Positions 596 through 14,365 of a DNA stretch of 57,134 nucleotides are shown in pieces. Below the pieces are notes generated by a model. The model did no database searches. It saw nothing but the letters and a program-made list of their open reading frames with translations, and was not told the origin of the DNA. The DNA is from an uncultured Desulfobacteraceae bacterium. GTDB taxonomy: Bacteria > Desulfobacterota > Desulfobacteria > Desulfobacterales > ETH-SRB1. The first letter of the stretch is position 1. Each line of letters opens with the position of its first letter. The DNA lies in the NCBI GenBank assembly GCA_964472445.1, contig CAYYMU010000001.1, forward strand, positions 1 to 57,134, read 5' to 3'. The translations under genes were made by a program, and so were the position numbers.

Positions 596-976
596 TCATT
601 TTGGATGACATTCACCGCATGTAAGAGGGCCTTGATTCTGCTCTGCATGGCAACCCTTGCAGTTTGCATGAAATGCCTTCATCAAAGGCATTGTCTTGCC
701 ATCAGCCTCAAGCTTGTGACATGCCGCACATTCAGTCTCGGATGAATCATCCCACACATTCTCGCCGTTTTCATATAGATGATGACAAGCCATACAATCA
801 ATTCCAGCGTCATCAGTATGGAGAGCATGAGGAAAAATAGCCGCAGGCCTCTCGCGTTCAATAAAAACATCATGCTTAAGAGATACAATATCATCCTGAG
901 CATATGCCGTTCCAAGAATAAAAAGAAACGCCAACCCTGATATTAATAAAAATAGTGCAGTGTTACTTTTTTTCAT
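596..976 (-). CDS. Periplasmic tetraheme cytochrome c3-family protein (TmcA-like)
   Basis: 126 aa. Signal peptide ends ...GTAYA/QD. Four CxxCH motifs (CMACH, CAACH, CKGCH, CGECH). Size and heme count fit the cytochrome c3 family. Divergent from TmcDCB-like genes. Confidence 0.8.
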   Translation of the reverse strand: MKKSNTALFLLISGLAFLFILGTAYAQDDIVSLKHDVFIERERPAAIFPHALHTDDAGIDCMACHHLYENGENVWDDSSETECAACHKLEADGKTMPLMKAFHANCKGCHAEQNQGPLTCGECHPK

Positions 977-1283
977 TCCAATAGACCTCCAGCTTTTATA
1001 ATTTACTCAGACCTTAGACCCAAATTTTTTAAACATTATTCAGCTAAAACATTAGCAAAAATTTTTAACAAATCAACTTCTTCCTGTCAAGAAAAAACCA
1101 GTAAAGTAATGATTTACTCTTTTGACTTGACCTTTATAAAAAAATAAACTACTGTGCGTTTTGATTTTTGTGCGGTGATATATTATTAACAACAAATAGT
1201 TAATCCGTTGATTATATGAAACATAAGCTTATCAACAGCAGATGTATCTGACTTCCAACAAGAATAAAATAAGGAGGTAGGTA

Positions 1284-2552
1284 ATGGGTAACTCGGAAAA
1301 TTGGGACTGGGAATGTCAAAAAAAATTGGTTGCCGATACAGGAAAATGGAAAAGCCAATTTGAAGATGTATGGGAACCATATATCAGTCCTGATGGTGAA
1401 AAAATAGCCTCTATTGTTAAAGTAGGGGAAGGCGAATTCAACATGGCTGTTAACGGGGGAACGTGGGAAGAACCATTTGAAAAGATATGGTTTTCCAGGT
1501 TTACCCCTGATGGCCGCCTGACAGGTTTGATAACAAAAGACATGGAATGGACCATGGCTGTGGATGGAAAACCATGGGAACAGATGTACGAATATATCTG
1601 GGATACCAAATTCAGTGCTGACGGTAAGGTTATAACTGCGATCACTAAACAGGATGGCGTTTACGGAATAACAGCAAATGAGAAAACATGGGAATGTTCT
1701 GTTCAACTTCAAAGCATTTCCGGTTATGCGGTAAGCAACGACGGTAAAAATATTGCCGCAATCAGCCAAACGGTTGCCATTGCAGAAGCCGATGTTAATG
1801 CGTTTTCTGCTGGCAGCTGGTCGATAGTTGCAAATGGAAAGCCATGGAAAGATAATTTTGTTAATATCTATGGAATAACCATAAGCAATGACAGCAAAAA
1901 TATTGCCGCAGAATACAGAAACAGTATTACTGAATACGGAATTATAGTAAATGGACAACCATGGAATGAAGTTTTTACCTGCACATGGGAACCGGTTTTT
2001 CATCCCACAAACAGCGATGAGGTATCTGCTCCGGTCAGAAAAGACGGACAGTGGTTTCTGGCAACAAACGGCAGAATAGTATGGGACAAAGGTTTTGTTA
2101 ATCTTATGTATCAAACATACAGCCCTGACGGCAACAGTATTGCTGCGGGTGTTGCCCCAAACTTTGCGAACTGGACAATTGCCGTTAATGGACAGCCCTG
2201 GTCAAAGACATTCAATGAATGTATCTTAAAACCGGTTTTCAGCCCTGACGGCAGAAAAGTAGCTGCAATTGCAAAAGACAGCGGCAACTGGTTTCTTGTT
2301 GTTAATGGAAAAGTGCTTGGGAAAGGCTATGATAATATTTGGCCGCCTGTTTTCAGCCCAAATAACGACATGGTAATCTGCAAGGTAGAAAAAAACGGCA
2401 AATTTGGTGTCGCGGTTAACGACAAAATCAAGCATAATGGATATGAGTCCCTCTGGAATCCTGTTATATCGCCTGATGGAACAAAGGTACTGATATCCGG
2501 CGTAAAAGACGGGAAATTTTATCGCGAGGTAGTCCTGTTAAGCGAACTGTAA
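1284..2552 (+). CDS. Trp-rich, 10-repeat (beta-propeller-like) cytoplasmic protein, TmcD-like
   Basis: 422 aa with no signal peptide and about 21 Trp. About ten repeats of roughly 42 aa with the pattern NG.pW...(F/Y)..IW.P.FSPDG..IAA. AAGGAGG RBS. First gene of an operon with the cytochrome b and HdrD-like genes. Confidence 0.5.
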   Translation: MGNSENWDWECQKKLVADTGKWKSQFEDVWEPYISPDGEKIASIVKVGEGEFNMAVNGGTWEEPFEKIWFSRFTPDGRLTGLITKDMEWTMAVDGKPWEQMYEYIWDTKFSADGKVITAITKQDGVYGITANEKTWECSVQLQSISGYAVSNDGKNIAAISQTVAIAEADVNAFSAGSWSIVANGKPWKDNFVNIYGITISNDSKNIAAEYRNSITEYGIIVNGQPWNEVFTCTWEPVFHPTNSDEVSAPVRKDGQWFLATNGRIVWDKGFVNLMYQTYSPDGNSIAAGVAPNFANWTIAVNGQPWSKTFNECILKPVFSPDGRKVAAIAKDSGNWFLVVNGKVLGKGYDNIWPPVFSPNNDMVICKVEKNGKFGVAVNDKIKHNGYESLWNPVISPDGTKVLISGVKDGKFYREVVLLSEL

Positions 2553-2637
2553 CCATATAAACCGATTTTTATTATAGTTAAAATAATTTATAAAAACAAA
2601 TAGATTATAAATAGTATTTTCAAAAGGGGGAAAGCAA

Positions 2638-3285
2638 ATGTATGAATTCGTAAGCGGACCGCTTGTATGGATAGCCTTTATAATATTTATCGGCGGAAGC
2701 CTGTATAGATTATTGTACATGTTGTCCGGCGCTAAAAAGGATATAACTTTGTTCAGGCATATGTCCGTGGAACACAGTTTAGCCTCTCTTTTACACTGGT
2801 TAATACCATTTAACAATCAATATATGAGAAAAAGACCGATATTTACAATTATATCTTTTGCTTTTCATATCTGTTTGTTAGTAACACCTGTTTTTCTGTT
2901 GGCACATGTAATCTTGTTTGATGAATCATGGAATGTAAGCTGGTTGAGCCTTCCCAATGCAGTAGCCGACTGGATGACCATAATAGTTGTCGCAGGGGCT
3001 GTCTTTTATGCATACAGAAGATTAACAGATCCTGTGGTAAAAAATGTTACCGATGGTTCTGACTTTCTTCTGCTGGCGATTACCGCTCTTCCCTTTATAA
3101 CCGGTTTTCTTGCATATCATCAATGGTTCGGTTCAAAAACAATGCTGATACTTCACATCCTTGCCGGCGAGCTTATGCTTATAGCCATCCCATTTACAAG
3201 GCTGAGTCACATGCTCTTTTTTGTTTTCACAAGAGCATTATTCGGAAGTGAACAGGGTTACTGGAAAAATTCAAAGGACTGGTAA
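2638..3285 (+). CDS. Integral-membrane cytochrome b of the NarI/DsrM/HmeC/TmcC family
   Basis: 215 aa with about five hydrophobic helices carrying conserved His. It lies directly upstream of an HdrD-like gene, the classic membrane-anchor/CCG-protein pairing. Confidence 0.7.
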   Translation: MYEFVSGPLVWIAFIIFIGGSLYRLLYMLSGAKKDITLFRHMSVEHSLASLLHWLIPFNNQYMRKRPIFTIISFAFHICLLVTPVFLLAHVILFDESWNVSWLSLPNAVADWMTIIVVAGAVFYAYRRLTDPVVKNVTDGSDFLLLAITALPFITGFLAYHQWFGSKTMLILHILAGELMLIAIPFTRLSHMLFFVFTRALFGSEQGYWKNSKDW

Positions 3286-3319
3286 GATTTAACAGCAAAA
3301 TGATCTTAAGGAGAATATT

Positions 3320-4654
3320 ATGAAACCCACCATAGCTATAAGAGAACCGGTCGTAGATGATCTTATGGACCAGACCGAGAAAAACCTCACTGAAGAACAG
3401 ATAGAAAAAGTTATTAATGAAGTTATAGATAAAGAAACCAGCGTGCGTTTGTGGACCTACGTGAATACATGTATTCACTGCGGGTTATGTTCCGAGGCAT
3501 GCCACTGGTTTTTATCTAATGACAGGGATGTCAGTTTTGCTCCAGTTACAAAAGTAAAAGACACCCTATGGGTAATGCTGGAGAAAAAGGGAAAGGTTGA
3601 CGCTGCATTTATTAAAAGATGCTCTCAAATCTCCCATACCGAATGCAACGTTTGTCGACGCTGCGGTATGTACTGCCCTTTTGGAATAGACATTGCCTAT
3701 ATGATGCTTATAGTTCGCCGGATATGCGCAAGACTCGAGATGGTTCCTCTTTACCTGCAGGATACTGTTAACAGTCATGCTGCCACAATGAACCAGATGT
3801 GGGTAAAGCCTGATGAATGGATAGATACCCTCCAGTGGCAGGAAGAAGAAGGCCAGGGATATGTGCCAAGCGCGCGTTTGCCCCTGGAAAAAGAAGGCTC
3901 TGAGGTCATGTATTCGGTTATTGGCCCTGAGCCGAAGTTTTTAGCCCAGCTTCTTGGCAATATTACAATAATCATGAAAGTCGCAGGTATTGACTGGACG
4001 ATGCCAGCAACTGCTGGCTGGGATAACAGCAACATGGCCATGTATTCAGGAGATTTCGAGGTCATGGCAAGAGTGGAAAGACTTCATTATGAAACAGCTC
4101 AAAGGCTAAAAGTAAAAAAGATAGTCATGGGTGAATGCGGTCATGCATTCAGGGGAGCGGAATATGACGGTCCCACATGGCTGGGCTGGATGAGACCGCC
4201 CATAGAGCTTGTTCATGCTGTATCATTTTATTATGACCTGCTCATGAGCGGCAGAATTAAAATAGCAAAAAAAATTGAAGGGCCGATCACTGCGCAGTAT
4301 CCATGCAATATTATCAGAAATGCAGGATTAGGCTCAAAACTGCGGTATATTATGAATGCAGTGTGTGAAGAGTTTGTAGATCTTGTTCCTAATGACAGGC
4401 ATGCCTTCTGCTGTAATGCAGGCGGTGACACTATTAACTGCGGCCCGCCATGGAAAAAGATCAGGGTCCAGTCAGCCAGGATACAGTCGGAAAATTTTAA
4501 AAGAACCGGAGCTCACACTATTGTGACACCCTGCCATAACTGCCACAGTGGAGTTGAGGATATTGTTGACGGATATAAACTTGGAATGCATGTCAAGTTC
4601 TTCAGCGAATTATTAGTAGAAGCAATGGAAATACCTGAAGACCTGAAGCCTTAA
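3320..4654 (+). CDS. Cytoplasmic Fe-S protein of the HdrD/DsrK/HmeD/TmcB family
   Basis: 444 aa. Two CX2CX2CX3C motifs (CIHCGLCSEAC, CNVCRRCGMYCP). C-terminal Cys clusters of CCG type (CGHAF, FCCNAGG, PCHNCH). AAGGAG RBS. Confidence 0.8.
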   Translation: MKPTIAIREPVVDDLMDQTEKNLTEEQIEKVINEVIDKETSVRLWTYVNTCIHCGLCSEACHWFLSNDRDVSFAPVTKVKDTLWVMLEKKGKVDAAFIKRCSQISHTECNVCRRCGMYCPFGIDIAYMMLIVRRICARLEMVPLYLQDTVNSHAATMNQMWVKPDEWIDTLQWQEEEGQGYVPSARLPLEKEGSEVMYSVIGPEPKFLAQLLGNITIIMKVAGIDWTMPATAGWDNSNMAMYSGDFEVMARVERLHYETAQRLKVKKIVMGECGHAFRGAEYDGPTWLGWMRPPIELVHAVSFYYDLLMSGRIKIAKKIEGPITAQYPCNIIRNAGLGSKLRYIMNAVCEEFVDLVPNDRHAFCCNAGGDTINCGPPWKKIRVQSARIQSENFKRTGAHTIVTPCHNCHSGVEDIVDGYKLGMHVKFFSELLVEAMEIPEDLKP

Positions 4655-7537: not shown

Positions 7538-8338
7538 TTAAGCAGGTAGAAGTCGTTGAATAATTCCCGTGGGACATTCTTCAAGACACTTGCCGCATCC
7601 TGTACATTTTTCACCGTCAACCATTGCCAGGAATTTATCAACTATTACAGCCTTTTCCGGGCATACCTTCTTACATTTCCCGCAGCCGATACATCCCGCG
7701 CTGCATATGGCCTTTACAACTTTTCCTCCATCATGAGAACTGCAAATTGTTGCCACTTTCTGAGTTTCTTTTATTAACCTTGGAATATGACGGGGACAAA
7801 TATCTACACATGTGCCGCAGCCGGTACAAAGTTCCTCATCCACAACAGGCAGACCGTCTTCACCCATTTTCAAAGCCCCAAACGGACAATTTGCAACACA
7901 GGTTCCGAGACCGAGGCATCCATAGGTACAGCTCTTGTCTCCTCCAAAAAGAAGTGAAGCAGCGCGGCAATCTGTGATGCCCTGGTAAACATATTTTTTC
8001 TCAGCAGCACTATTAGTGCCACGACAAAAGATATGTGCAACGTCCCTTGCAGATGCATCAGCAGAAACGCCAAGCACAGCAGCAATGGCCTGAGCAACAT
8101 CATCTCCACCAGCCTTGCATGCACTTGGCGAAGCCTCACCCGCCACTATAGCCGCTGCACAATCACTGCAACCAGCATAGCCACATCCACCGCAATTGGC
8201 CCCGGGAAGGCACTCATCTACGGCAACAACCTTTGGATCAACATAAACATAAAAAACCTTTGATGCAACTCCAAGAACAATACTTAAAACAAGGCCAATG
8301 CCTCCCATAGCTAACATTGCATTCAATACAGGTCCCAT
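7538..8338 (-). CDS. rnfB: Rnf complex subunit B (membrane-anchored polyferredoxin)
   Basis: 266 aa. N-terminal TM helix, CGGCGYAGC cluster motif, then several CxxCxxCxxxCP ferredoxin motifs. AGGAGG RBS. Confidence 0.85.
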   Translation of the reverse strand: MGPVLNAMLAMGGIGLVLSIVLGVASKVFYVYVDPKVVAVDECLPGANCGGCGYAGCSDCAAAIVAGEASPSACKAGGDDVAQAIAAVLGVSADASARDVAHIFCRGTNSAAEKKYVYQGITDCRAASLLFGGDKSCTYGCLGLGTCVANCPFGALKMGEDGLPVVDEELCTGCGTCVDICPRHIPRLIKETQKVATICSSHDGGKVVKAICSAGCIGCGKCKKVCPEKAVIVDKFLAMVDGEKCTGCGKCLEECPTGIIQRLLPA

Positions 8339-8945
8339 AAAATTTTCCGCCTCCTGTTTTGCCTATTTTTATAAGATTTTATAAAAAACACTCCCCATCA
8401 GTCATTAGCTGACCCGCATGTTGTGTTTATGTTATTTCATGGCTTGTAGCATATTGAATCAACGGGACTATGGTTTCCCAAGAGGGAGCAACCACTTTAA
8501 AAGTCCTGGAAAAGCTTGAAGCCGCTACAGATAAACAAAAACTGCCGGGGGAAGTAATTAATTTCATCTCTTTCTTCTTAGTTGAATTTTAATGATAAAT
8601 TTATAAAAAAAATAAGGATGTAATTGGCCGCAAATATAATGAACTGCTGATTTTGTCAAGTGAAAAAAGATAATTCAGCCAGCTTAATCAGGAATTACGG
8701 CTTTTATATTTACAGAGTTAAGCTTAAATAACAGTAGGTTATAATTTATATATAACCTGGGTGCGTTAAATCATTCTTTAATGGTTTATCTTCCCTTGTT
8801 TTTTCAAACAGATAAAAGCTTTTATTTATGATTTTTTAAAAAAAGTCTTGAAAGCTTTTTTACATTATGTTACAGGAGCTCAGGTTTATTTATTAGAGAC
8901 AATAAATGCTATTTAAACCAAACCTTGAAAGGATTGCATATAATA

Positions 8946-9326
8946 ATGACTCTTCAAAAAGAATTAAAGCTGGCTTATGGTCTTGCCATTATTTTGTTGA
9001 TTGTGGGTGTTTTAAGTTATGCTGCCTTTTCTTCCAAGAGCCCTACTCCGCCAGCAAGAATAATGTTCAAGTCTGTTGGAGGAAAAGTATTATTTGATCA
9101 TAAGACACATATATCTGATTCAGGCTATGGCATTTCCTGTACTGATTGTCATCATAATCTTGAAGAGGGTGATACAAATCCTCAGACCTGTGGAGAATGT
9201 CATGAATCTGAAAGCGAAGATCCGGATGTTCCCAAAAAGTCTGATGCATTGCACAACCAATGCATAGGCTGCCACAAAGATGCTGGAGCAGGTCCTGAAA
9301 AATGTTCGTCATGCCATGTAATGTAA
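8946..9326 (+). CDS. Membrane-anchored tetraheme cytochrome c encoded upstream of rnfC
   Basis: Four CxxCH motifs (CTDCH, CGECH, CIGCH, CSSCH) after one N-terminal hydrophobic helix. The ORF track starts at TTG 8925. ATG 8946 is preferred, but the start is uncertain. Confidence 0.8.
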   Translation: MTLQKELKLAYGLAIILLIVGVLSYAAFSSKSPTPPARIMFKSVGGKVLFDHKTHISDSGYGISCTDCHHNLEEGDTNPQTCGECHESESEDPDVPKKSDALHNQCIGCHKDAGAGPEKCSSCHVM

Positions 9327-9543: not shown

Positions 9544-10824
9544 ATGATAAAAAAATCATTTATTGGTTTGGCTAAGCCCCATCTCGAATATGAAAGGCTT
9601 GAGGACACACCAAAAATCGAAAAAATTCCAAATCCGGAAAAGGTTACCTTTCTAATAGACGCTTTATATAACAAAAAGAAAGCTTTATTAAAAAAAGGCG
9701 CGGCAGTAAAAACCGGTCAGAAACTTGCGGTTTACGAAAACAAATATGACTATTTTACATCTTCTGTGGCTGGAAAAGTTTCTTCCCTTTCTTCATACCC
9801 GGGTAATTTTGGCAAGTCTTATACCGCTATTGAGGTTGAGGTTGCTGATGGGGAAACAGACGATCAGTTTTCTCAGGTTGCAAATAAACCTTCCATAGAT
9901 AATATCTCTGATTTCCTTGCCTTTTCTCCTGGAAATCCTTCAATAAAATCTTTTTCAAATTCCGAAAAACCAATAAATTCCATAGTTGTTTGCGGTGTTG
10001 ATCAAGACCTGCTAATCACCACAAATCAATATGTGGTAAAATCAAATATCGAAGCAGTAAAAAAAGGCATCGAAATATTAAAGGCTGTAACCAGAGTTGA
10101 TAATATAATATTGGTTGTATCTGAGGCTCAAGCACAAAGCGTTTCTTCGTCAGGAACAGGAATAAAAATTAAGCAGGTTGATTCAAAATATCCTGCTGCT
10201 CTGCCACAACTTATCGCTAAAAATTTGCTGGGAAAAGTGATACCTGCAGGAAAAACATGTGAAGACATGGGAATATGTTTTATCAGCGCTGAAGCAGTTG
10301 CATCGATTGGAGATGCATTTGAAAAAGGTCATATACCCACTACAAAAATACTGACCCTGATTAAAAAAGACGGTTCCAAAGTTCTTGTATCAGCAAAAAT
10401 TGGAACTCCTGTAGGCAATATTTTCGAAACCCTTAATATAACAGTAAATGAAAAAGATAAAATAATTTTTGGCGGGCCCATGACAGGATCTGCCGTGTAT
10501 TCATTGGATCATCCTGTTCAACCCGACACTGATGCAATTATTGTTCAGGATAAAGAGGATATTCCGGTTTTTTCAAACTATCCATGCATAAACTGCGGTG
10601 AATGCGTAAGAATATGTCCTGCAAATATTCAGATTAATCTGCTTGTTCGGTTTCTTGAAACCGGACAATATCAAGAAGCGGCGGATCAGTACGATCTGTA
10701 TTCATGCATTGAATGCGGTCTTTGCAGTTATGTTTGTGTATCTGGGATGCCGATATTCCAGTATATAAGGTCGGCAAAATATGAGCTTGGCAGGGCTAAT
10801 ACAGCGGAGGCAACTAATGGTTGA
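9544..10824 (+). CDS. rnfC: Rnf complex subunit C (atypical: nucleotide/flavin-binding motifs not recognisable)
   Basis: 426 aa. N-terminal barrel-sandwich-like segment, GGPMTG motif, and two C-terminal 4Fe-4S motifs (CINCGECVRICP, CIECGLCSYVC). First gene of rnfCDGEA. Confidence 0.8.
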   Translation: MIKKSFIGLAKPHLEYERLEDTPKIEKIPNPEKVTFLIDALYNKKKALLKKGAAVKTGQKLAVYENKYDYFTSSVAGKVSSLSSYPGNFGKSYTAIEVEVADGETDDQFSQVANKPSIDNISDFLAFSPGNPSIKSFSNSEKPINSIVVCGVDQDLLITTNQYVVKSNIEAVKKGIEILKAVTRVDNIILVVSEAQAQSVSSSGTGIKIKQVDSKYPAALPQLIAKNLLGKVIPAGKTCEDMGICFISAEAVASIGDAFEKGHIPTTKILTLIKKDGSKVLVSAKIGTPVGNIFETLNITVNEKDKIIFGGPMTGSAVYSLDHPVQPDTDAIIVQDKEDIPVFSNYPCINCGECVRICPANIQINLLVRFLETGQYQEAADQYDLYSCIECGLCSYVCVSGMPIFQYIRSAKYELGRANTAEATNG

Positions 10825-11776
10825 TAATAACAAATTTATAGTTTCACATGCCCCTTTCTGGCACGATGGAAGCAGAATATCTACACGAAATTATAATATG
10901 GCGCTCGCTGCTTTCCCGGCAATACTTCTTGGCATTATTTACTATGGCATGCCGGCTGTTGGCGTTGTGTCACTTTCTATCTCCTCGGCAATTATCTGGG
11001 AATTTATATTTTGTCGTGTAACAAAACGTTCAATTACCATTGGAGACGGTAATGCAGCGATTATTGGTATGATATTGGGCATGCTTTTACCGGCAACAGC
11101 GCCCTGGTGGCTTGTAATAATAGGAACATTTGTTGCCGTTATTATCGGGAAACAGATCTATGGCGGAATCGGTGCTAATCCTTTTAATCCTGTAGTTGTT
11201 GCCATGGCCATTCTCATGATATCATGGACAGACATATTTGATTTTAACGAAGCGCTTATAAATTACGATTTGGATTTTGCCATGGTATATCCGCTTGCCG
11301 CTTTAAAACATTTTGGCGTATCTGCTGTTGATTCATTCAGCATGGGTGATCTTTTAATGGGCAAACAGTCAGGTGGAATAGGCTCGACATTTGGGCTCGG
11401 CCTTATTGCCGGAGGGATCTATCTCATTATCAAAGGAATCATCAGGTGGGAAATAGCTCTTTCCTTTTTAGCCGGTGTTTTTATAACCGCTCTGTTGTTT
11501 AACATAACCGATCCTGCGAGTTATGCGGGCCCGGTTGTCCATCTTTTTGCCGGTTATACTTTGATAGGGGCCTTTTTTCTTGCAACTGAAGATTCCTCTT
11601 CGCCGGTCAATTTTATTCCCATGCTTATTTACGGCGCATGCACGGGTTTTTTGACCGTACTCATCAGAAATATCGGTGTTTATGTTGATGGCGTGATCTT
11701 TGCGATCCTGATTATGAACCTTGTAAATCCGCTTTTAGATAAGATCAGTCCAAAAGCGATTGGAAAGGTAGCTTAA
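10817..11776 (+). CDS. rnfD: Rnf complex subunit D
   Basis: Polytopic NqrB/RnfD-like protein. ATG 10817 overlaps the rnfC stop and has GGAGG 7 nt upstream. The ORF-track start at 10781 is probably an over-extension. Confidence 0.9.
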   Translation: MVDNNKFIVSHAPFWHDGSRISTRNYNMALAAFPAILLGIIYYGMPAVGVVSLSISSAIIWEFIFCRVTKRSITIGDGNAAIIGMILGMLLPATAPWWLVIIGTFVAVIIGKQIYGGIGANPFNPVVVAMAILMISWTDIFDFNEALINYDLDFAMVYPLAALKHFGVSAVDSFSMGDLLMGKQSGGIGSTFGLGLIAGGIYLIIKGIIRWEIALSFLAGVFITALLFNITDPASYAGPVVHLFAGYTLIGAFFLATEDSSSPVNFIPMLIYGACTGFLTVLIRNIGVYVDGVIFAILIMNLVNPLLDKISPKAIGKVA

Positions 11777-11777
11777 A

Positions 11778-12368
11778 ATGCGTGAAATAATAAAAATGAT
11801 CGTGGTTCTGACTGTTCTTAGCTGTTTCTCAGGAGGCCTTCTTGCCGCAATCAGCGGAGGAACAAAAGATAAAATCGAATATCAGCAGTTAGTCTTTGTT
11901 AAAGGGCCTGCAATAAGGAATATTCTTGAAGGATGTTCCAATGATCCTATTGTTGACCGCTTTAAAATCAAGGACGGCGATATTGAAAGAAGCTTCTTTG
12001 TAGGTGTATTCGACGGTAAAGCCGACACTGTGGCATTCGAAAGCTTTGGAAAGGGATTTGGTGGTGATATCGGCATTATGGTTGGTATAAACATAAATGA
12101 TGATAAGATTATCAGTATGGGTGTAACTACCCACAGTGAAACGCCAGGTATAGGTTCCAAGGCAAAAACAGATCCTAAATTTTCAGATCAATTCAAGACA
12201 TTGGATTTGGTTCAATCTTTTAAGGTCAAACCAGACGGCGGAGAAATCGATGCCATATCCGGAGCCTCTGTTACCTCACGTGGAGTTTGTGGTGGCATAA
12301 CAGAAGCTGGTACTGTTTATGAACGCTTAAAACCTCAAATTATTGAAGAAATAAAAAAATTTAGTTAG
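11778..12368 (+). CDS. rnfG: Rnf complex subunit G (FMN-binding)
   Basis: 196 aa with an N-terminal anchor. DAISGASVTS matches the flavinylation motif Dxx(s/t)gA(T/S). Confidence 0.9.
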   Translation: MREIIKMIVVLTVLSCFSGGLLAAISGGTKDKIEYQQLVFVKGPAIRNILEGCSNDPIVDRFKIKDGDIERSFFVGVFDGKADTVAFESFGKGFGGDIGIMVGININDDKIISMGVTTHSETPGIGSKAKTDPKFSDQFKTLDLVQSFKVKPDGGEIDAISGASVTSRGVCGGITEAGTVYERLKPQIIEEIKKFS

Positions 12369-12386: not shown

Positions 12387-12980
12387 ATGGCTAAGTCTAT
12401 CACTCAGGAATTTACAAAAGGTTTGTGGGATGAGATACCACCATTCAGGCTTGTGCTTGGCCTCTGTCCCACACTTGCTGTTACTAAATCTGTAGAAAAC
12501 GGACTTGGAATGGGAGTGGCTGTAATCTTTGTTCTTGTATGTTCCAATATACTTGTTTCATTGCTGCGAAATATAATTCCTTCAAAAGTAAGAATAGCCT
12601 GTTTTATCGTAATAATTGCAACATTTGTTATAGTTGTAGAACTTCTTATGCAGGCTTATACATATTCACTCTTTTTAAAGCTTGGAATTTTCATACCTCT
12701 TATTGTCGTTAACTGTATTTTGCTTGGACGCGCCGAGGCATTTGCGTACAAAAACGGCGTTGTCGCCTCAATAGCGGATGGGCTTGGGATAGGTTTCGGG
12801 TTTACCCTTTCCCTGGTTTCCATCGGCGCCCTGCGGGAGGTATTTGGCAGCGGCACCTTTTTCGGAATGTCTGTATTTGGCCCCTCTTATCAGCCTTTTA
12901 CATTCATGGTCGAGGCCCCCGGCGCATTTGTGTGTCTTGGGCTCATGCTCTGTATAATGAACCTTGCAGGAAGTAAATAG
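12387..12980 (+). CDS. rnfE: Rnf complex subunit E
   Basis: 197-aa polytopic protein of the NqrD/RnfE type in the conserved position. GGGAG RBS. Confidence 0.9.
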   Translation: MAKSITQEFTKGLWDEIPPFRLVLGLCPTLAVTKSVENGLGMGVAVIFVLVCSNILVSLLRNIIPSKVRIACFIVIIATFVIVVELLMQAYTYSLFLKLGIFIPLIVVNCILLGRAEAFAYKNGVVASIADGLGIGFGFTLSLVSIGALREVFGSGTFFGMSVFGPSYQPFTFMVEAPGAFVCLGLMLCIMNLAGSK

Positions 12981-12991
12981 GAGAAAATCTA

Positions 12992-13567
12992 ATGGGAGAT
13001 TATATACTCCTCGCTATAAGCTGCATCCTTGTTAACAACATTCTGCTTGCACAGTATCTGGGTTGTTGTCCTTTTATGGGCACATCAAAGAAAATGGAAA
13101 CAGCAATTGGAATGGGTATGGCTGTAATATTTGTTCTTGTTATGGCAGGTTCAATGACGTGGCTTATTGAGGCATATGTTTTAAAACCGTTCAAACTTGA
13201 ATATCTTAGAACCATTGCTTTTATTCTTGTAATAGCATCTCTTGTGCAGTTTGTTGAGATGTTTTTAAGAAAGAGCATCCCTGCTCTGTATAAAGGGCTT
13301 GGAATCTTTTTGCCGCTTATTACAACCAACTGCGCTGTAATGGGGGTTTGTCTTATAAATATTAATGAAGAATATACTTTTGTCCAGAGCCTTGTCACAT
13401 CATTTAGTTATGCGACAGGTTTTGGTCTTGCCCTTGTTCTTTTTGCAGGAGTACGTGAACGCATACTTCTGGCCAGGGTTCCAAAACCGCTCGAGGATAC
13501 TGCTATCGGGCTTGTTACTGCGGGAATGCTTTCCCTTGCGTTTTTTGCATTCAAAGGAATGGTTTAA
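12992..13567 (+). CDS. rnfA: Rnf complex subunit A
   Basis: 191-aa polytopic protein of the NqrE/RnfA type. AGGAG RBS. Confidence 0.9.
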   Translation: MGDYILLAISCILVNNILLAQYLGCCPFMGTSKKMETAIGMGMAVIFVLVMAGSMTWLIEAYVLKPFKLEYLRTIAFILVIASLVQFVEMFLRKSIPALYKGLGIFLPLITTNCAVMGVCLININEEYTFVQSLVTSFSYATGFGLALVLFAGVRERILLARVPKPLEDTAIGLVTAGMLSLAFFAFKGMV

Positions 13568-13739: not shown

Positions 13740-13898
13740 ATAATAGTTCAGCCACTAAGTCACTAAGGCACAAAAGGACTTTAGTTTTAAAGTGTTATCA
13801 AAAAGAGAAGAAAAAAGTTGTAGATACGGCATATACTGTATATTAAGAATTATATTATAATCATGGTGTTCTTAGTACCTTTGTGGCTGAACTATTAC
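13740..13898. mobile_element. 159-bp MITE-like element related to the four-helix-bundle element family
   Basis: About 29-bp imperfect terminal inverted repeats (ATAATAGTTCAGCCACTAAGTCACTAAG / CTTAGTACCTTTGTGGCTGAACTATTAC). Flanks GAAAAAAG / GAAAAAGG look like an 8-bp target duplication. The TTCAGCCAC terminus is shared with the elements at 52604 and 56940. Confidence 0.6.
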
Positions 13899-13918
13899 GA
13901 AAAAGGCTATTATATATT

Positions 13919-14365
13919 TTGGCAACTGAAAAAGGCATTGTAACAAAGGTTTATTCTTCTATAGCATGTGTTAAATGCTCCAAATCCGCTGCGTGTGAGT
14001 CATGCTCGGCAAAAGATTTCTGTGATACTGCTAAGGGAGGAGGGTCTGATGATGATGTGGAAGTGGAAGCAATAAATGCTGTGGGAGCAAAGGTCGATGA
14101 CAAAGTTACTATCAGCTTTGAAACATCTTCATTATTAAAATTATCTTTTCTCGTTTATATGGTTCCGGTTTTATTTTTAATCTTTGGGGTGGTTATCGGC
14201 GATAAAATCGCGCCTATATTCAATTACGATCAATCAATGTTTTCGGTACTTGTTGGTTTTTTATTTCTGTTTGCCGCATTTTTCTTTGTTAAAGTAAAAG
14301 GGAAAGAGCTATCTAAAAAAGAAGCATATCAACCCAAAATCATTAGAATCCTAAAACAGCAATAA
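13919..14365 (+). CDS. rseC: RseC/MucC-family (SoxR-reducing system) membrane protein
   Basis: N-terminal ...EKGIVTKV... plus a Cys cluster (CVKCSKSAACESCSAKDFC), then two TM helices. Typical companion of rnf operons. The ORF-track GTG at 13883 lies inside the MITE inverted repeat, so TTG 13919 is preferred. The start is uncertain. Confidence 0.65.
   Translation: MATEKGIVTKVYSSIACVKCSKSAACESCSAKDFCDTAKGGGSDDDVEVEAINAVGAKVDDKVTISFETSSLLKLSFLVYMVPVLFLIFGVVIGDKIAPIFNYDQSMFSVLVGFLFLFAAFFFVKVKGKELSKKEAYQPKIIRILKQQ

What the first reader, a model, noticed from the sequence alone, without database searches (positions are those of the whole stretch)
9904..10029. RnfC lacks recognisable NADH/FMN-binding signatures
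Seen in sequence: where RnfC and NuoF-type proteins normally carry a Gly-rich G(L/M)GGAGFP segment and an (N)GAECEPY segment, this RnfC reads ISDFLAFSPGNPSIKSF and SIVVCGVDQDLLITTN. The N-terminal barrel-like region, the GGPM(T/M)G motif and both 4Fe-4S motifs are retained.

Established knowledge: RnfC is considered the NAD(H)-interacting subunit. In Methanosarcina, an Rnf complex co-encoded with a multiheme cytochrome passes electrons to the membrane/cytochrome side rather than to NAD+.

Inference: a membrane-anchored tetraheme cytochrome is encoded immediately upstream. Together, this suggests the complex links ferredoxin to a periplasm-facing cytochrome pool rather than to NAD+.
Basis: partly seen in the sequence, partly recalled or inferred. 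Interest (0 to 1): 0.6.

Follow-up and report, generated by a model that had tools for sequence, protein, structure and literature searches.

The report
Cytochrome-linked Rnf pump lacking NAD site
This sulfate-reducer-type Rnf membrane redox pump has lost the pocket that normally hands electrons to NAD+ and also one flavin site in RnfD, while keeping its ferredoxin side and carrying its own small cytochrome c, so it most likely links ferredoxin to periplasmic cytochromes; the same losses occur in the model strains Desulfovibrio vulgaris Hildenborough and D. alaskensis G20.

Summary
RnfC (9544-10824) aligns end to end with the three structurally solved, NAD+-reducing RnfCs. It lacks all three NuoF-like FMN/NADH motifs: the Gly-rich loop is deleted, ECEPY reads VDQDL, and YPQGAEKQ reads YPAALPQL. 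It keeps the N-terminal barrel, GGPMTG and both 4Fe-4S motifs.

I add a second loss. RnfD has Tyr where canonical RnfDs have the FMN-bearing Thr. The RnfG flavinylation motif, the RnfA/E cysteines and a ferredoxin-type small RnfB are intact.

The same pattern holds in every cytochrome-led rnf operon sampled: 23 of 23 in a 300-genome phylum sample and 12 of 12 in Desulfovibrionaceae, including DVU2792 and the G20 operon. None of 27 canonical operons has a cytochrome. On the RnfC tree this is a single split, so the association is not statistically independent.

The best reading (about 0.6) is a reversible, ion-translocating ferredoxin:cytochrome c3 oxidoreductase. The universally retained RnfC iron-sulfur clusters remain unexplained.

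The kind is partly known. The Tol2-type "Rnf2" RnfC was noted in genome papers, and cytochrome-led rnf operons are known in sulfate reducers and Methanosarcina. None has been tested biochemically in bacteria. This locus differs from Rnf2 in having a small, divergently encoded RnfB.

The parts
7538..8338 (-). rnfB. Small (266 aa) ferredoxin-type RnfB with an N-terminal TM helix, an FeS domain and 2x2[4Fe-4S]. It is encoded divergently from the rest of the locus.
   Evidence: It matches PF04060 plus Fer4 domains and TIGR01944 at 116.8 bits, above the 68.7 cut-off. Its closest named relatives are three Desulfobacterota MAGs (60-81% identity), followed by canonical Clostridia/Bacteroidales RnfB at 43-52%. 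It is the only RnfB homologue in the genome.
8925..9326 (+). Membrane-anchored tetraheme cytochrome c3-family protein. The probable true start is the ATG at 8946, the anchor helix is at 8949-9029, and the hemes are at 9138, 9189, 9261 and 9303.
   Evidence: It has four CxxCH motifs. It matches PF02085 at 52 bits and is TmcA-like at 66 bits, below the cut-off. The N-terminal anchor followed by P..P.RI.F..GG.V.F.H is conserved in the cytochromes of all cytochrome-led rnf operons, including the Desulfovibrio decaheme protein.
9544..10824 (+). rnfC, a 426-aa RnfC without the NuoF-like FMN/NAD(H) site.
   Evidence: It scores 183.9 bits on TIGR01945, below the 245.95 cut-off. The AF2 model has pTM 0.76; the best Foldseek hits are 9eri_C (TM 0.69), 8ahx_C and 7zc6_C, then NqrA at 0.54-0.56.
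9904..10029 (+). Remodelled segment that replaces the Gly-rich loop (G[ML]GGA.FP, 7 residues deleted) and the ECEPY motif.
   Evidence: The segment is conserved at the family average in 64 homologues, with P129, G130 and D155 invariant.
10186..10215 (+). Third lost motif: canonical KYPQG(A/S)EKQL reads KYPAALPQLI.
10585..10737 (+). Two complete CxxCxxCxxxC(P) motifs for [4Fe-4S] clusters.
   Evidence: The cysteines are invariant in 64 homologues. Both motifs are present in 35 of 35 motif-less and 27 of 27 canonical RnfCs.
10781..11776 (+). rnfD. The flavinylation site is lost: DFAMVYPL at 11273-11296 stands where canonical RnfD has D..[ST].ATPL.
   Evidence: HMMER aligns the Tyr with the Thr of TTATPL in A. 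woodii and C. tetanomorphum RnfD. My count of the alignment makes this A. woodii residue 156; Thr156 is the FMN-bearing residue per PMC11889175. The motif is present in 23 of 23 canonical RnfDs. It is absent in all motif-less operons except L058 and L060.
11778..12368 (+). rnfG, the periplasmic FMN subunit. The flavinylation motif DAISGAS at 12249-12269 is retained.
   Evidence: It scores 246.6 bits on NF045876 (RnfG_DVU2794), above the 205 cut-off. The motif fits the ApbE consensus D-x-x-[S/T]-G-A-[S/T]. It is retained in nearly all of the 55 RnfGs aligned. ApbE is present on contig C181.
12387..12980 (+). rnfE. The cluster-ligand cysteines C27 and C110 are retained.
   Evidence: It matches PF02508 and TIGR01948. 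The cysteines are 96-100% conserved in 55 operons.
12992..13567 (+). rnfA. The cluster-ligand cysteines C26 and C114 are retained.
   Evidence: It scores 256.8 bits on TIGR01943, above the cut-off. The cysteines are invariant in 56 operons.
13883..14365 (+). RseC/MucC-family gene that accompanies the rnf genes.
   Evidence: It matches PF04246 at 111 bits. An RseC gene lies next to many of the related rnf operons.

Best explanation
The locus encodes a seven-subunit, cytochrome-c3-led Rnf complex that works as a reversible, ion-translocating ferredoxin:cytochrome c oxidoreductase rather than a ferredoxin:NAD+ oxidoreductase.

Shown:
- RnfC has lost all three NuoF-like FMN/NAD(H) motifs.
- RnfD has lost the Thr that carries covalent FMN.
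- The ferredoxin-type RnfB, the RnfA/E cluster cysteines and the RnfG flavinylation motif are intact.
- A membrane-anchored tetraheme c3-type cytochrome heads the operon.

Inferred:
- Electrons from reduced ferredoxin pass RnfB, the RnfA/E centre and the periplasmic RnfG-FMN.
- They leave there to the anchored cytochrome and on to the periplasmic c3 network. A Tmc-like complex lies 5 kb upstream, and the genome holds six c3-type loci.
- In reverse, reduced cytochrome plus ion-motive force would reduce ferredoxin.
- RnfC and RnfD stay as structural or ion-path subunits.

The role of the conserved RnfC [4Fe-4S] clusters is not explained.
For: RnfC motif loss:
- The loss is shown by alignment to solved RnfCs.
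- All three NAD+-reducing structures carry the motifs.

RnfD and the outward path:
- Thr is replaced by Tyr at the FMN site.
- RnfG reads DAISGAS, which fits the ApbE motif, and ApbE is present.
- RnfA C26/C114 and RnfE C27/C110 are invariant.
- RnfB is a small ferredoxin-type protein, 43-52% identical to Clostridia RnfB.
- The genome has no RnfB::GltD fusion and only one RnfC. The 100%-complete same-family genome G078 also has only one.

Distribution:
- In the phylum sample, 23 of 23 cytochrome-led operons are motif-less and 0 of 27 canonical operons have a cytochrome.
- 12 of 12 Desulfovibrionaceae operons show the same RnfC and RnfD losses. These include N. vulgaris (AAS97264.1) and O. alaskensis G20.
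- The cytochrome N-terminal anchor is conserved across all these operons, which suggests a true subunit.
- The remodelled segments are under ordinary purifying selection, not decaying.

Literature:
- Attempts to show Fd:NAD+-coupled ion transport in G20 vesicles failed (PMC4841214).
- M. acetivorans Rnf with a co-encoded cytochrome does not use NAD(P) (PMC4023990).
- The Tol2-type RnfC was noted to need a partner other than NAD (PMC5109826).
Against: - No biochemical data exist for any bacterial member.
- In G20, dhcA mutants showed no fitness defect under the conditions where rnf mutants did. Those authors concluded that the cytochrome is not needed for Rnf electron transport (PMC4215793).
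- Both RnfC [4Fe-4S] motifs are kept in 35 of 35 motif-less RnfCs and in 107 of 109 cluster representatives. This argues that RnfC still carries electrons somewhere.
- On the RnfC tree the motif state needs only one change, so the link between cytochrome and motif loss rests on one evolutionary event, not on repeated ones.
- 12 of 35 motif-less operons have no adjacent cytochrome.
- Non-covalent flavin binding in RnfD or RnfC cannot be excluded from sequence.
Confidence: 0.6

Rival explanations
1. The U-shaped path is kept, but it ends at a different cytoplasmic partner. Electrons would still return through RnfD (non-covalent flavin or riboflavin) to the RnfC [4Fe-4S] clusters. From there they would go to an unknown acceptor that docks on the remodelled RnfC pocket, for example a DsrC/Hdr-type or flavodoxin-like protein. 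The cytochrome would be a side branch or an alternative entry.
For: - The RnfC Fe-S motifs are universally conserved.
- The remodelled segments are conserved at the family average, with invariant P129, G130 and D155.
- dhcA is dispensable in G20 while rnf is not.
- 12 motif-less operons lack a cytochrome.
Against: - The RnfD FMN-bearing Thr is lost, which breaks the known RnfG-to-RnfD relay.
- No candidate partner gene is conserved next to the operon apart from RseC.
Confidence: 0.2
2. The complex is an Nqr-like quinone reductase. Electrons from ferredoxin would end on menaquinone bound at RnfD/RnfC. RnfC would play the cofactor-poor role of NqrA, and the cytochrome would be accessory.
For: - RnfC hits the NqrA second-domain model PF24836 and an NqrA NCBIfam model at 88.6 bits.
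- NqrA structures are the second-best Foldseek group, at TM 0.54-0.56.
- NqrA is known to have lost FMN (PMC11889175).
Against: - NqrB keeps its covalent FMN Thr, whereas this RnfD has lost it.
- NqrA lost its Fe-S clusters, whereas this RnfC keeps both.
- Canonical RnfC structures are clearly closer than NqrA.
Confidence: 0.1
3. The complex is still a ferredoxin:NAD(P)+ oxidoreductase. It would use a non-canonical nucleotide site in RnfC, or a separately encoded NAD(P)H-binding partner that docks on the complex.
For: - The literature assigns this function to Desulfovibrio Rnf from mutant phenotypes.
- The Rossmann-like fold of RnfC is retained with good confidence.
- Two acidic residues (D153, D155) stand where the E-x-E of ECEPY is.
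- GltD-like proteins exist elsewhere in the genome.
Against: - The phosphate-binding Gly-rich loop is deleted and all three motifs are gone.
- The RnfD flavin site is also lost.
- Relatives that do use NAD(P)H appear to have needed a GltD-type module fused to RnfB. This genome lacks that fusion.
- Vesicle assays in G20 failed.
Confidence: 0.07

Closest known systems
Cytochrome-led Rnf of Desulfovibrionaceae: dhcA-rnfCDGEAB(-apbE/rnfF), e.g. DVU2791-2798 and Dde_0580-0587
   Same: - A c3-family multiheme cytochrome with the same N-terminal anchor sits in front of rnfC.
- RnfB is small in D. vulgaris and G20.
- RnfG is of the DVU2794 type.
- RnfC lacks all three FMN/NADH motifs and RnfD lacks the flavinylation Thr.
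   Different: - The cytochrome here has four hemes, not ten.
- RnfC is only about 30% identical and belongs to the Desulfobacterales (Tol2-type) branch.
- rnfB is divergent and upstream rather than last in the operon.
- apbE is on another contig.
- The literature calls the Desulfovibrio enzyme a ferredoxin:NADH oxidoreductase.
Rnf2 / Desulfobacula toluolica Tol2-type Rnf of Desulfobacteraceae (Woehlbrand 2013, as cited in PMC5109826; D. multivorans Rnf2)
   Same: - The window RnfC sits inside this clade (support 99) and is 49% identical to D. multivorans Rnf2 RnfC.
- The order is the same: 4-8-heme cytochrome followed by rnfCDGEA.
- RnfC has no NADH/FMN site, as already noted in print.
   Different: - Rnf2 has a RnfB of about 690 aa fused to a GltD-like Fer4_20 plus Pyr_redox_2 NAD(P)H module.
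- The window and its same-family relatives have a 266-aa ferredoxin-type RnfB instead, and no such fusion anywhere in the genome.
- The expected cytoplasmic substrate is therefore ferredoxin, not NAD(P)H.
Rnf of Methanosarcina acetivorans (mmcA-rnfCDGEAB)
   Same: - It has a co-encoded multiheme cytochrome c and a small RnfB.
- The complex is Na+-translocating, ferredoxin-dependent and does not use NAD(P) (PMC4023990; PMC12174285).
- Canonical motif peptides do not hit the Methanosarcinales RnfC model NF041837. This hints at the same loss.
   Different: - It is archaeal, and its acceptor is methanophenazine via MmcA.
- All window subunits score below the Methanosarcina equivalog cut-offs.
- I could not obtain the M. 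acetivorans RnfC sequence for a direct alignment.
Canonical Rnf ferredoxin:NAD+ oxidoreductase (A. woodii 9ERI, C. tetanomorphum 7ZC6, A. vinelandii 8AHX)
   Same: - It has the same six core subunits and the same folds.
- It shares the RnfB polyferredoxin, the RnfA/E cysteines, the RnfG flavinylation site and the two RnfC [4Fe-4S] clusters.
   Different: - Canonical Rnf has the RnfC FMN/NADH motifs and the RnfD FMN Thr, both absent here.
- It has no cytochrome gene.
NqrA of Na+-NQR
   Same: It is an RnfC homologue that has lost the FMN/NADH site, and the fold similarity is TM 0.54-0.56.
   Different: NqrA also lost both Fe-S clusters, whereas this RnfC keeps them. NqrB keeps its covalent FMN, whereas this RnfD does not.

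Membership tests
Canonical Rnf (ferredoxin:NAD+ oxidoreductase) | Six core subunits RnfA, B, C, D, G and E | tested here: met
   Pfam and NCBIfam hits cover all six. RnfA, D, E and B score above the TIGR subfamily cut-offs.
Canonical Rnf (ferredoxin:NAD+ oxidoreductase) | RnfC NuoF-like FMN/NAD(H) site: G[ML]GGA.FP, ECEP[YF] and YPQG.EK | tested here: not met
   All three motifs are absent and the Gly-rich loop is deleted. RnfC scores 183.9 bits on TIGR01945 against a 245.95 cut-off.
Canonical Rnf (ferredoxin:NAD+ oxidoreductase) | RnfD threonine carrying covalent FMN (D..[ST].ATPL) | tested here: not met
   The window reads DFAMVYPL, with Tyr at the Thr position. The motif is present in 23 of 23 canonical RnfDs.
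Canonical Rnf (ferredoxin:NAD+ oxidoreductase) | RnfG flavinylation motif, RnfA/E cluster cysteines and two RnfC [4Fe-4S] motifs | tested here: met
   RnfG reads DAISGAS. The cysteines are invariant. Two CxxCxxCxxxC motifs are present.
Canonical Rnf (ferredoxin:NAD+ oxidoreductase) | Ferredoxin-dependent NAD+ reduction coupled to ion transport | not testable with these tools
   This needs a membrane or purified-enzyme assay.
Rnf2 / Tol2-type Rnf of Desulfobacteraceae | RnfC without the NADH-ubiquinone-oxidoreductase-type site, in the same RnfC clade | tested here: met
   The window falls in a clade of 16 with support 99 and is 49% identical to D. multivorans Rnf2 RnfC.
Rnf2 / Tol2-type Rnf of Desulfobacteraceae | Large (~700 aa) RnfB with an NAD(P)-binding module | tested here: not met
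   The window RnfB is 266 aa with no Pyr_redox or Fer4_20 domain. No such fusion exists in the genome. The reference fusion was characterised.
Rnf2 / Tol2-type Rnf of Desulfobacteraceae | Small multiheme cytochrome c gene directly upstream of rnfC | tested here: met
   The gene at 8925-9326 has four CxxCH motifs and lies 218 nt upstream.
Desulfovibrio-type cytochrome-led Rnf (dhcA-rnfCDGEAB-apbE) | c3-family multiheme cytochrome with an N-terminal anchor as the first gene | tested here: met
   The gene matches PF02085. The anchor and first-heme region are shared with the decaheme proteins of L046 and L144. The heme count differs: 4 versus 10.
Desulfovibrio-type cytochrome-led Rnf (dhcA-rnfCDGEAB-apbE) | Gene order rnfCDGEAB with apbE (rnfF) at the end | tested here: not met
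   rnfB is divergent and upstream. apbE is on contig C181.
Desulfovibrio-type cytochrome-led Rnf (dhcA-rnfCDGEAB-apbE) | RnfG of the DVU2794 type | tested here: met
   RnfG scores 246.6 bits on NF045876, above the 205 cut-off.
Methanosarcina Rnf (MmcA-RnfCDGEAB) | Subunits reach the Methanosarcinales equivalog models | tested here: not met
   All subunits fall below the cut-offs. For example, rnfC_Methano scores 128.9 against 650 and rnfB_Methano scores 280 against 445.
Methanosarcina Rnf (MmcA-RnfCDGEAB) | RnfC lacking the FMN/NADH motifs | tested here: inconclusive
   Canonical motif peptides hit the TIGR01945, RsxC, PrdC and NuoF models but not NF041837. No direct sequence was available.
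NqrA | RnfC homologue devoid of both FMN and Fe-S clusters | tested here: not met
   The Fe-S motifs are intact. The NqrA models score 88.6 against a 450 cut-off.

The most novel reading that the evidence does not exclude
The whole cytochrome-led, motif-less Rnf branch is not a ferredoxin:NAD+ oxidoreductase at all. The branch includes the model sulfate reducers D. vulgaris Hildenborough and D. alaskensis G20. It would instead be a separate enzyme class: an ion-pumping ferredoxin:cytochrome c3 oxidoreductase. Electrons would leave or enter at the periplasmic RnfG flavin. Current energy-conservation schemes for sulfate reducers that route Rnf electrons to NADH would then need revising.
Probability: 0.45. 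Interest if true: 0.75.

Novelty: new member of a known kind. Interest (0 to 1): 0.5.

Why it matters
Rnf is essential for growth of Desulfovibrio on H2, formate and ethanol, and it is drawn in current models as a ferredoxin:NAD+ pump. The sequences show that this branch lacks the NAD(H)/FMN pocket in RnfC and the FMN threonine in RnfD, while always carrying a cytochrome gene. The branch includes the window's complex and those of the two main model strains.

This gives a concrete, testable alternative: a direct, energy-conserving link between cytoplasmic ferredoxin and the periplasmic cytochrome c3 pool. It may also explain why Fd:NAD+ assays failed in G20 vesicles.

There is also an annotation consequence. 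These RnfCs score below the TIGR01945 cut-off, and NCBI names them only "4Fe-4S dicluster domain-containing protein". Automated metabolic reconstructions either miss them or mislabel them as NAD-dependent.

Tried and rejected
- **Decay or pseudogene: rejected.** The remodelled segments are conserved at the family average. The Fe-S and GGPMTG motifs are the best-conserved parts in 64-120 homologues.
- **Displaced motifs: rejected.** The alignments are full-length, and the remodelled fragment hits no family model.
- **A second, canonical Rnf in the genome: not found.** The genome is 90.7% complete. The 100%-complete same-family genome G078 also has a single RnfC.
- **Statistical test of cytochrome versus motif loss.** A raw Fisher test gives p = 1.7e-8. 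The tree shows that the motif state needs only one change, and independent-pairs analysis has n = 1. I do not claim an independent association.
- **M. acetivorans RnfC sequence: not obtained.** The single genome-contig scan, run with RnfB, returned no Methanosarcina. Ten distant cluster representatives all fell below the NF041837 cut-off. Only the indirect peptide-versus-model test was possible.
- **Papers not held:** Pereira 2011, Biegel 2011 and Li 2006.
- **Pocket inspection:** the AF2 model cannot be inspected at atom level with these tools, so pocket geometry was not assessed.
Full report
**The locus.** The window carries the following genes:
- rnfB (7538-8338, minus strand, 266 aa)
- a 586-bp divergent spacer
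- a tetraheme c3-family cytochrome (8925-9326)
- rnfC (9544-10824)
- rnfD (10781-11776)
- rnfG (11778-12368)
- rnfE (12387-12980)
- rnfA (12992-13567)
- an RseC-family gene (13883-14365)

RnfG reaches the NCBIfam model RnfG_DVU2794 (246.6 bits, cut-off 205). RnfC stays below the TIGR01945 cut-off (183.9 against 245.95). The genome is 2.27 Mb and 90.7% complete, and it holds only this RnfC. The closest homologues are named Desulfobacterales or Desulfobacteraceae MAG proteins.

**Checking the observation.** FSPGNPS lies opposite GMGGATFP, and CGVDQDL lies opposite AAECEPY. A MAFFT alignment shows a 7-residue deletion of the glycine-rich loop. It also shows a third lost motif: KYPQGAEKQL has become KYPAALPQLI.

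A canonical RnfC from the same phylum (D. multivorans Rnf1) aligns with all three solved, NAD+-reducing RnfCs. All of them carry AG(I/V)VG(M/L)GGA.FP, NG.ECEPYLT and YP.G..KQL. By my own recollection of complex I subunit Nqo1/NuoF, these correspond to the FMN-phosphate loop, the NADESEP segment and the YICGEE segment. The structure papers state that the RnfC FMN site resembles NuoF.

The barrel domain, GGPMTG and both CxxCxxCxxxC motifs are retained.

**Fold.** An AlphaFold2 model built from 64 homologues has pTM 0.76. pLDDT is 82-90 over residues 121-150; the Fe-S domain is poorly modelled. Foldseek ranks canonical RnfC structures first (9eri_C TM 0.69, 8ahx_C, 7zc6_C). NqrA follows at 0.54-0.56, and NuoF-like subunits at about 0.4. 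The Rossmann-like scaffold therefore persists, as it does in cofactor-free NqrA. The tools do not allow inspection of the pocket.

**A second loss, in RnfD.** HMMER aligns window RnfD DFAMVYPL with TTATPL of A. woodii and C. tetanomorphum RnfD. The Tyr stands at the Thr position, which is residue 156 in A. woodii by my count of the alignment. Thr156 carries the covalent FMN according to PMC11889175.

Across 58 operons, D..[ST].ATPL is present in 23 of 23 canonical RnfDs. It is absent from all motif-less operons except two of a different gene order.

By contrast, the RnfG motif is kept almost everywhere. The window reads D-A-I-S-G-A-S, which fits the published ApbE consensus D-x-x-[S/T]-G-A-[S/T]. 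An ApbE gene is present in the genome. RnfA C26/C114 and RnfE C27/C110 are invariant.

The outward half of the Rnf electron path is therefore intact. The return half is interrupted at two separate cofactor sites.

**Distribution.**
- In the top 120 homologues (55-100% identity), the altered sequences are themselves conserved: (Y/F)LAFAPGNPP.KLF and IVVC(C/G).D.DLLITT.
- Of the 109 full-length 50%-identity cluster representatives nearest to the window RnfC, 107 lack the motifs, and 107 keep both Fe-S motifs.
- A scan of 300 genomes of the phylum gave 62 RnfC loci. Of these, 27 have all three motifs and 35 have none.
- All 23 operons headed by a 4-10-heme cytochrome are motif-less. None of the 27 canonical operons has a cytochrome.

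On an RnfC tree built without the motif columns, the canonical proteins form one clade (support 96) and the motif state needs a single change. This is one deep split and not a repeated correlation. I give the raw Fisher p (1.7e-8) no weight as evidence of independence.

**Model organisms.** A family-level scan found the Desulfovibrio-type RnfC in 54 of 81 Desulfovibrionaceae genomes. Twelve fetched loci all show the same pattern:
- the order cytochrome (5 or 10 hemes) followed by rnfCDGEAB
- no RnfC motif
- two Fe-S motifs in RnfC
- no RnfD Thr motif
- an RnfG flavinylation motif in 11 of the 12 (the pattern search found none in L149)

Exact-sequence look-ups name several of them:
- Nitratidesulfovibrio vulgaris (RnfC AAS97264.1, on a 3,570,858-bp chromosome)
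- Oleidesulfovibrio alaskensis G20 (RnfA ABB37386.1)
- Megalodesulfovibrio gigas
- D. ferrophilus
- Taurinivorans muris

Their RnfCs have a 10-residue deletion of the Gly-rich loop, and ECEPY reads NPDPG. A further 116 Desulfovibrionaceae homologues are all motif-less.

The literature treats the G20 complex as a ferredoxin:NADH oxidoreductase (PMC4215793). It also reports that vesicle experiments meant to show Fd:NAD+-coupled ion transport were unsuccessful (PMC4841214).

**Position of this locus among known types.** The window RnfC lies inside the clade of the Tol2-type or "Rnf2" complexes (support 99). It is 49% identical to D. multivorans Rnf2 RnfC. Those complexes have a RnfB of about 690 aa fused to a GltD-like Fer4_20 plus Pyr_redox_2 module. 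[quoted passage not shown]

The window and its same-family relatives differ. They have a 266-aa RnfB whose nearest named relatives, after three Desulfobacterota MAGs, are canonical Clostridia and Bacteroidales RnfBs at 43-52% identity. The genome has no RnfB::GltD fusion.

Close relatives show other placements of the same small rnfB. L064 has rnfB-cyt-rnfCDGE in one direction, and L065 has cyt-rnfCDGEAB. In composition the window complex therefore resembles the Desulfovibrio and Methanosarcina types (cytochrome plus small RnfB), on a Tol2-type core.

**The cytochrome.** All operon cytochromes share a short charged N-terminus, a hydrophobic helix of about 20 residues without a good signal-peptidase site, and then P..P.RI.F..GG.V.F.H before the first heme. 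The Desulfovibrio decaheme protein shares this too. This fits a membrane-anchored, periplasm-facing subunit of common origin.

The genome holds six c3-type loci. A Tmc-like complex lies at 596-4654 in the window. A periplasmic cytochrome network is therefore available.

**Mechanism.**

Shown:
- two flavin sites of the return path are lost
- the outward path and the ferredoxin-type RnfB are retained
- a conserved anchored cytochrome is present

Inferred:
- electrons run from ferredoxin through RnfB, the RnfA/E centre and RnfG-FMN to the cytochrome, and then to the c3 pool
- the route is reversible and coupled to ion translocation
- from my own knowledge of the midpoint potentials, the ferredoxin-to-c3 span is similar to ferredoxin-to-NAD+

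Three facts do not fit fully:
- dhcA is dispensable in G20 where rnf is not
- both RnfC Fe-S clusters are always kept
- 12 motif-less operons have no adjacent cytochrome

I therefore keep a rival in which RnfC still passes electrons to an unknown cytoplasmic partner. I keep two smaller rivals as well: an Nqr-like quinone reductase and a non-canonical NAD(P)H site.

**Methanosarcina.** I could not fetch the M. acetivorans RnfC sequence. Peptides carrying each canonical motif hit TIGR01945, RsxC and, for the Gly-rich loop, PrdC and NuoF models. None of them hits the Methanosarcinales RnfC equivalog NF041837. A 72-residue canonical segment scores 116 bits on TIGR01945 but 34 bits on NF041837. This suggests the archaeal RnfC lacks the motifs too, but it is indirect evidence.

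**Earlier notes of this scan.** Notes read after my own analysis of RnfC and RnfD describe the same Rnf2-type and motif-less Rnf operons in other genomes. They also describe the split layout of this locus. They agree with the results above. I did not use them as evidence.

**Verdict.** The system belongs to a kind that is already partly described but never tested biochemically in bacteria. Its particular combination (Tol2-type core, small divergent RnfB) is a minor variant.

The most useful output concerns the model sulfate reducers. They lack both the RnfC NAD(H)/FMN site and the RnfD FMN site, which turns the open question of what Rnf does in these organisms into a simple assay.

Noticed in passing
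window 12249-12269: The RnfG flavinylation motif ends in Ser (DAISGAS). Almost all of the other RnfGs aligned, including the 68%-identical relative L004, end in Thr. ApbE accepts Ser but with lower efficiency according to PMC12052999.
   Followed up: partly
window 596-4654: A Tmc-like redox complex lies 5 kb upstream of the rnf genes. It comprises a tetraheme c3 (596-976, minus strand), a PD40-repeat protein, a NarI-like membrane protein and an Fe-S/CCG protein. It is a possible downstream partner of the periplasmic cytochrome pool.
   Followed up: partly
L064:1973-7134 and L065:4387-9800: Close relatives carry the same small rnfB in other positions. L064 has rnfB-cyt-rnfCDGE all on one strand, and L065 has cyt-rnfCDGEAB. 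The divergent layout in the window is therefore one of several rearrangements of the same gene set.
   Followed up: partly
L036, L037, L039, L041, L052, L062: These are motif-less RnfC operons with a large (~690 aa) RnfB fusion but no adjacent cytochrome gene. The electron partner on the far side of these complexes is unknown.
   Followed up: no
L058 and L060: These rnf operons have the order GEABCD. Their RnfC lacks the three motifs (one keeps EPY), but their RnfD keeps the T(T/S)ATPL flavinylation site. They are an intermediate state between canonical and motif-less complexes.
   Followed up: no
L145, L146 (D. ferrophilus), L149, L150, L154, L155: Several Desulfovibrionaceae have a protein of ~700-730 aa at the rnfB position that still matches RnfB. 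A published survey (PMC11434368) describes these operons as having lost rnfB in favour of an FAD-dependent oxidoreductase. They look like RnfB fusions of the Tol2 type instead. In four of these loci the large RnfB goes with a 5-heme cytochrome, and in two with a 10-heme one.
   Followed up: partly
G000:C33:992-7689 (L002 and neighbour): The window's genome encodes a NuoF/HydB-like flavoprotein of 629 aa (Complex1_51K, NADH_4Fe-4S). About 4 kb away lies a GltD-like 484-aa protein. Together they are a separate candidate route between NAD(P)H and ferredoxin.
   Followed up: no
window 10781-10824: The longest rnfD ORF overlaps the end of rnfC by 44 nt. The real RnfD start is probably further downstream.
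   Followed up: no
L144 (N. vulgaris AAS97264.1) and L005 (D. multivorans): NCBI names these RnfCs only '4Fe-4S dicluster domain-containing protein'. The window RnfC scores below the TIGR01945 cut-off, so a sub-cut-off score is the likely reason; I did not score these two proteins. Genome-based metabolic reconstructions can miss this Rnf type or treat it as NAD-dependent.
   Followed up: partly
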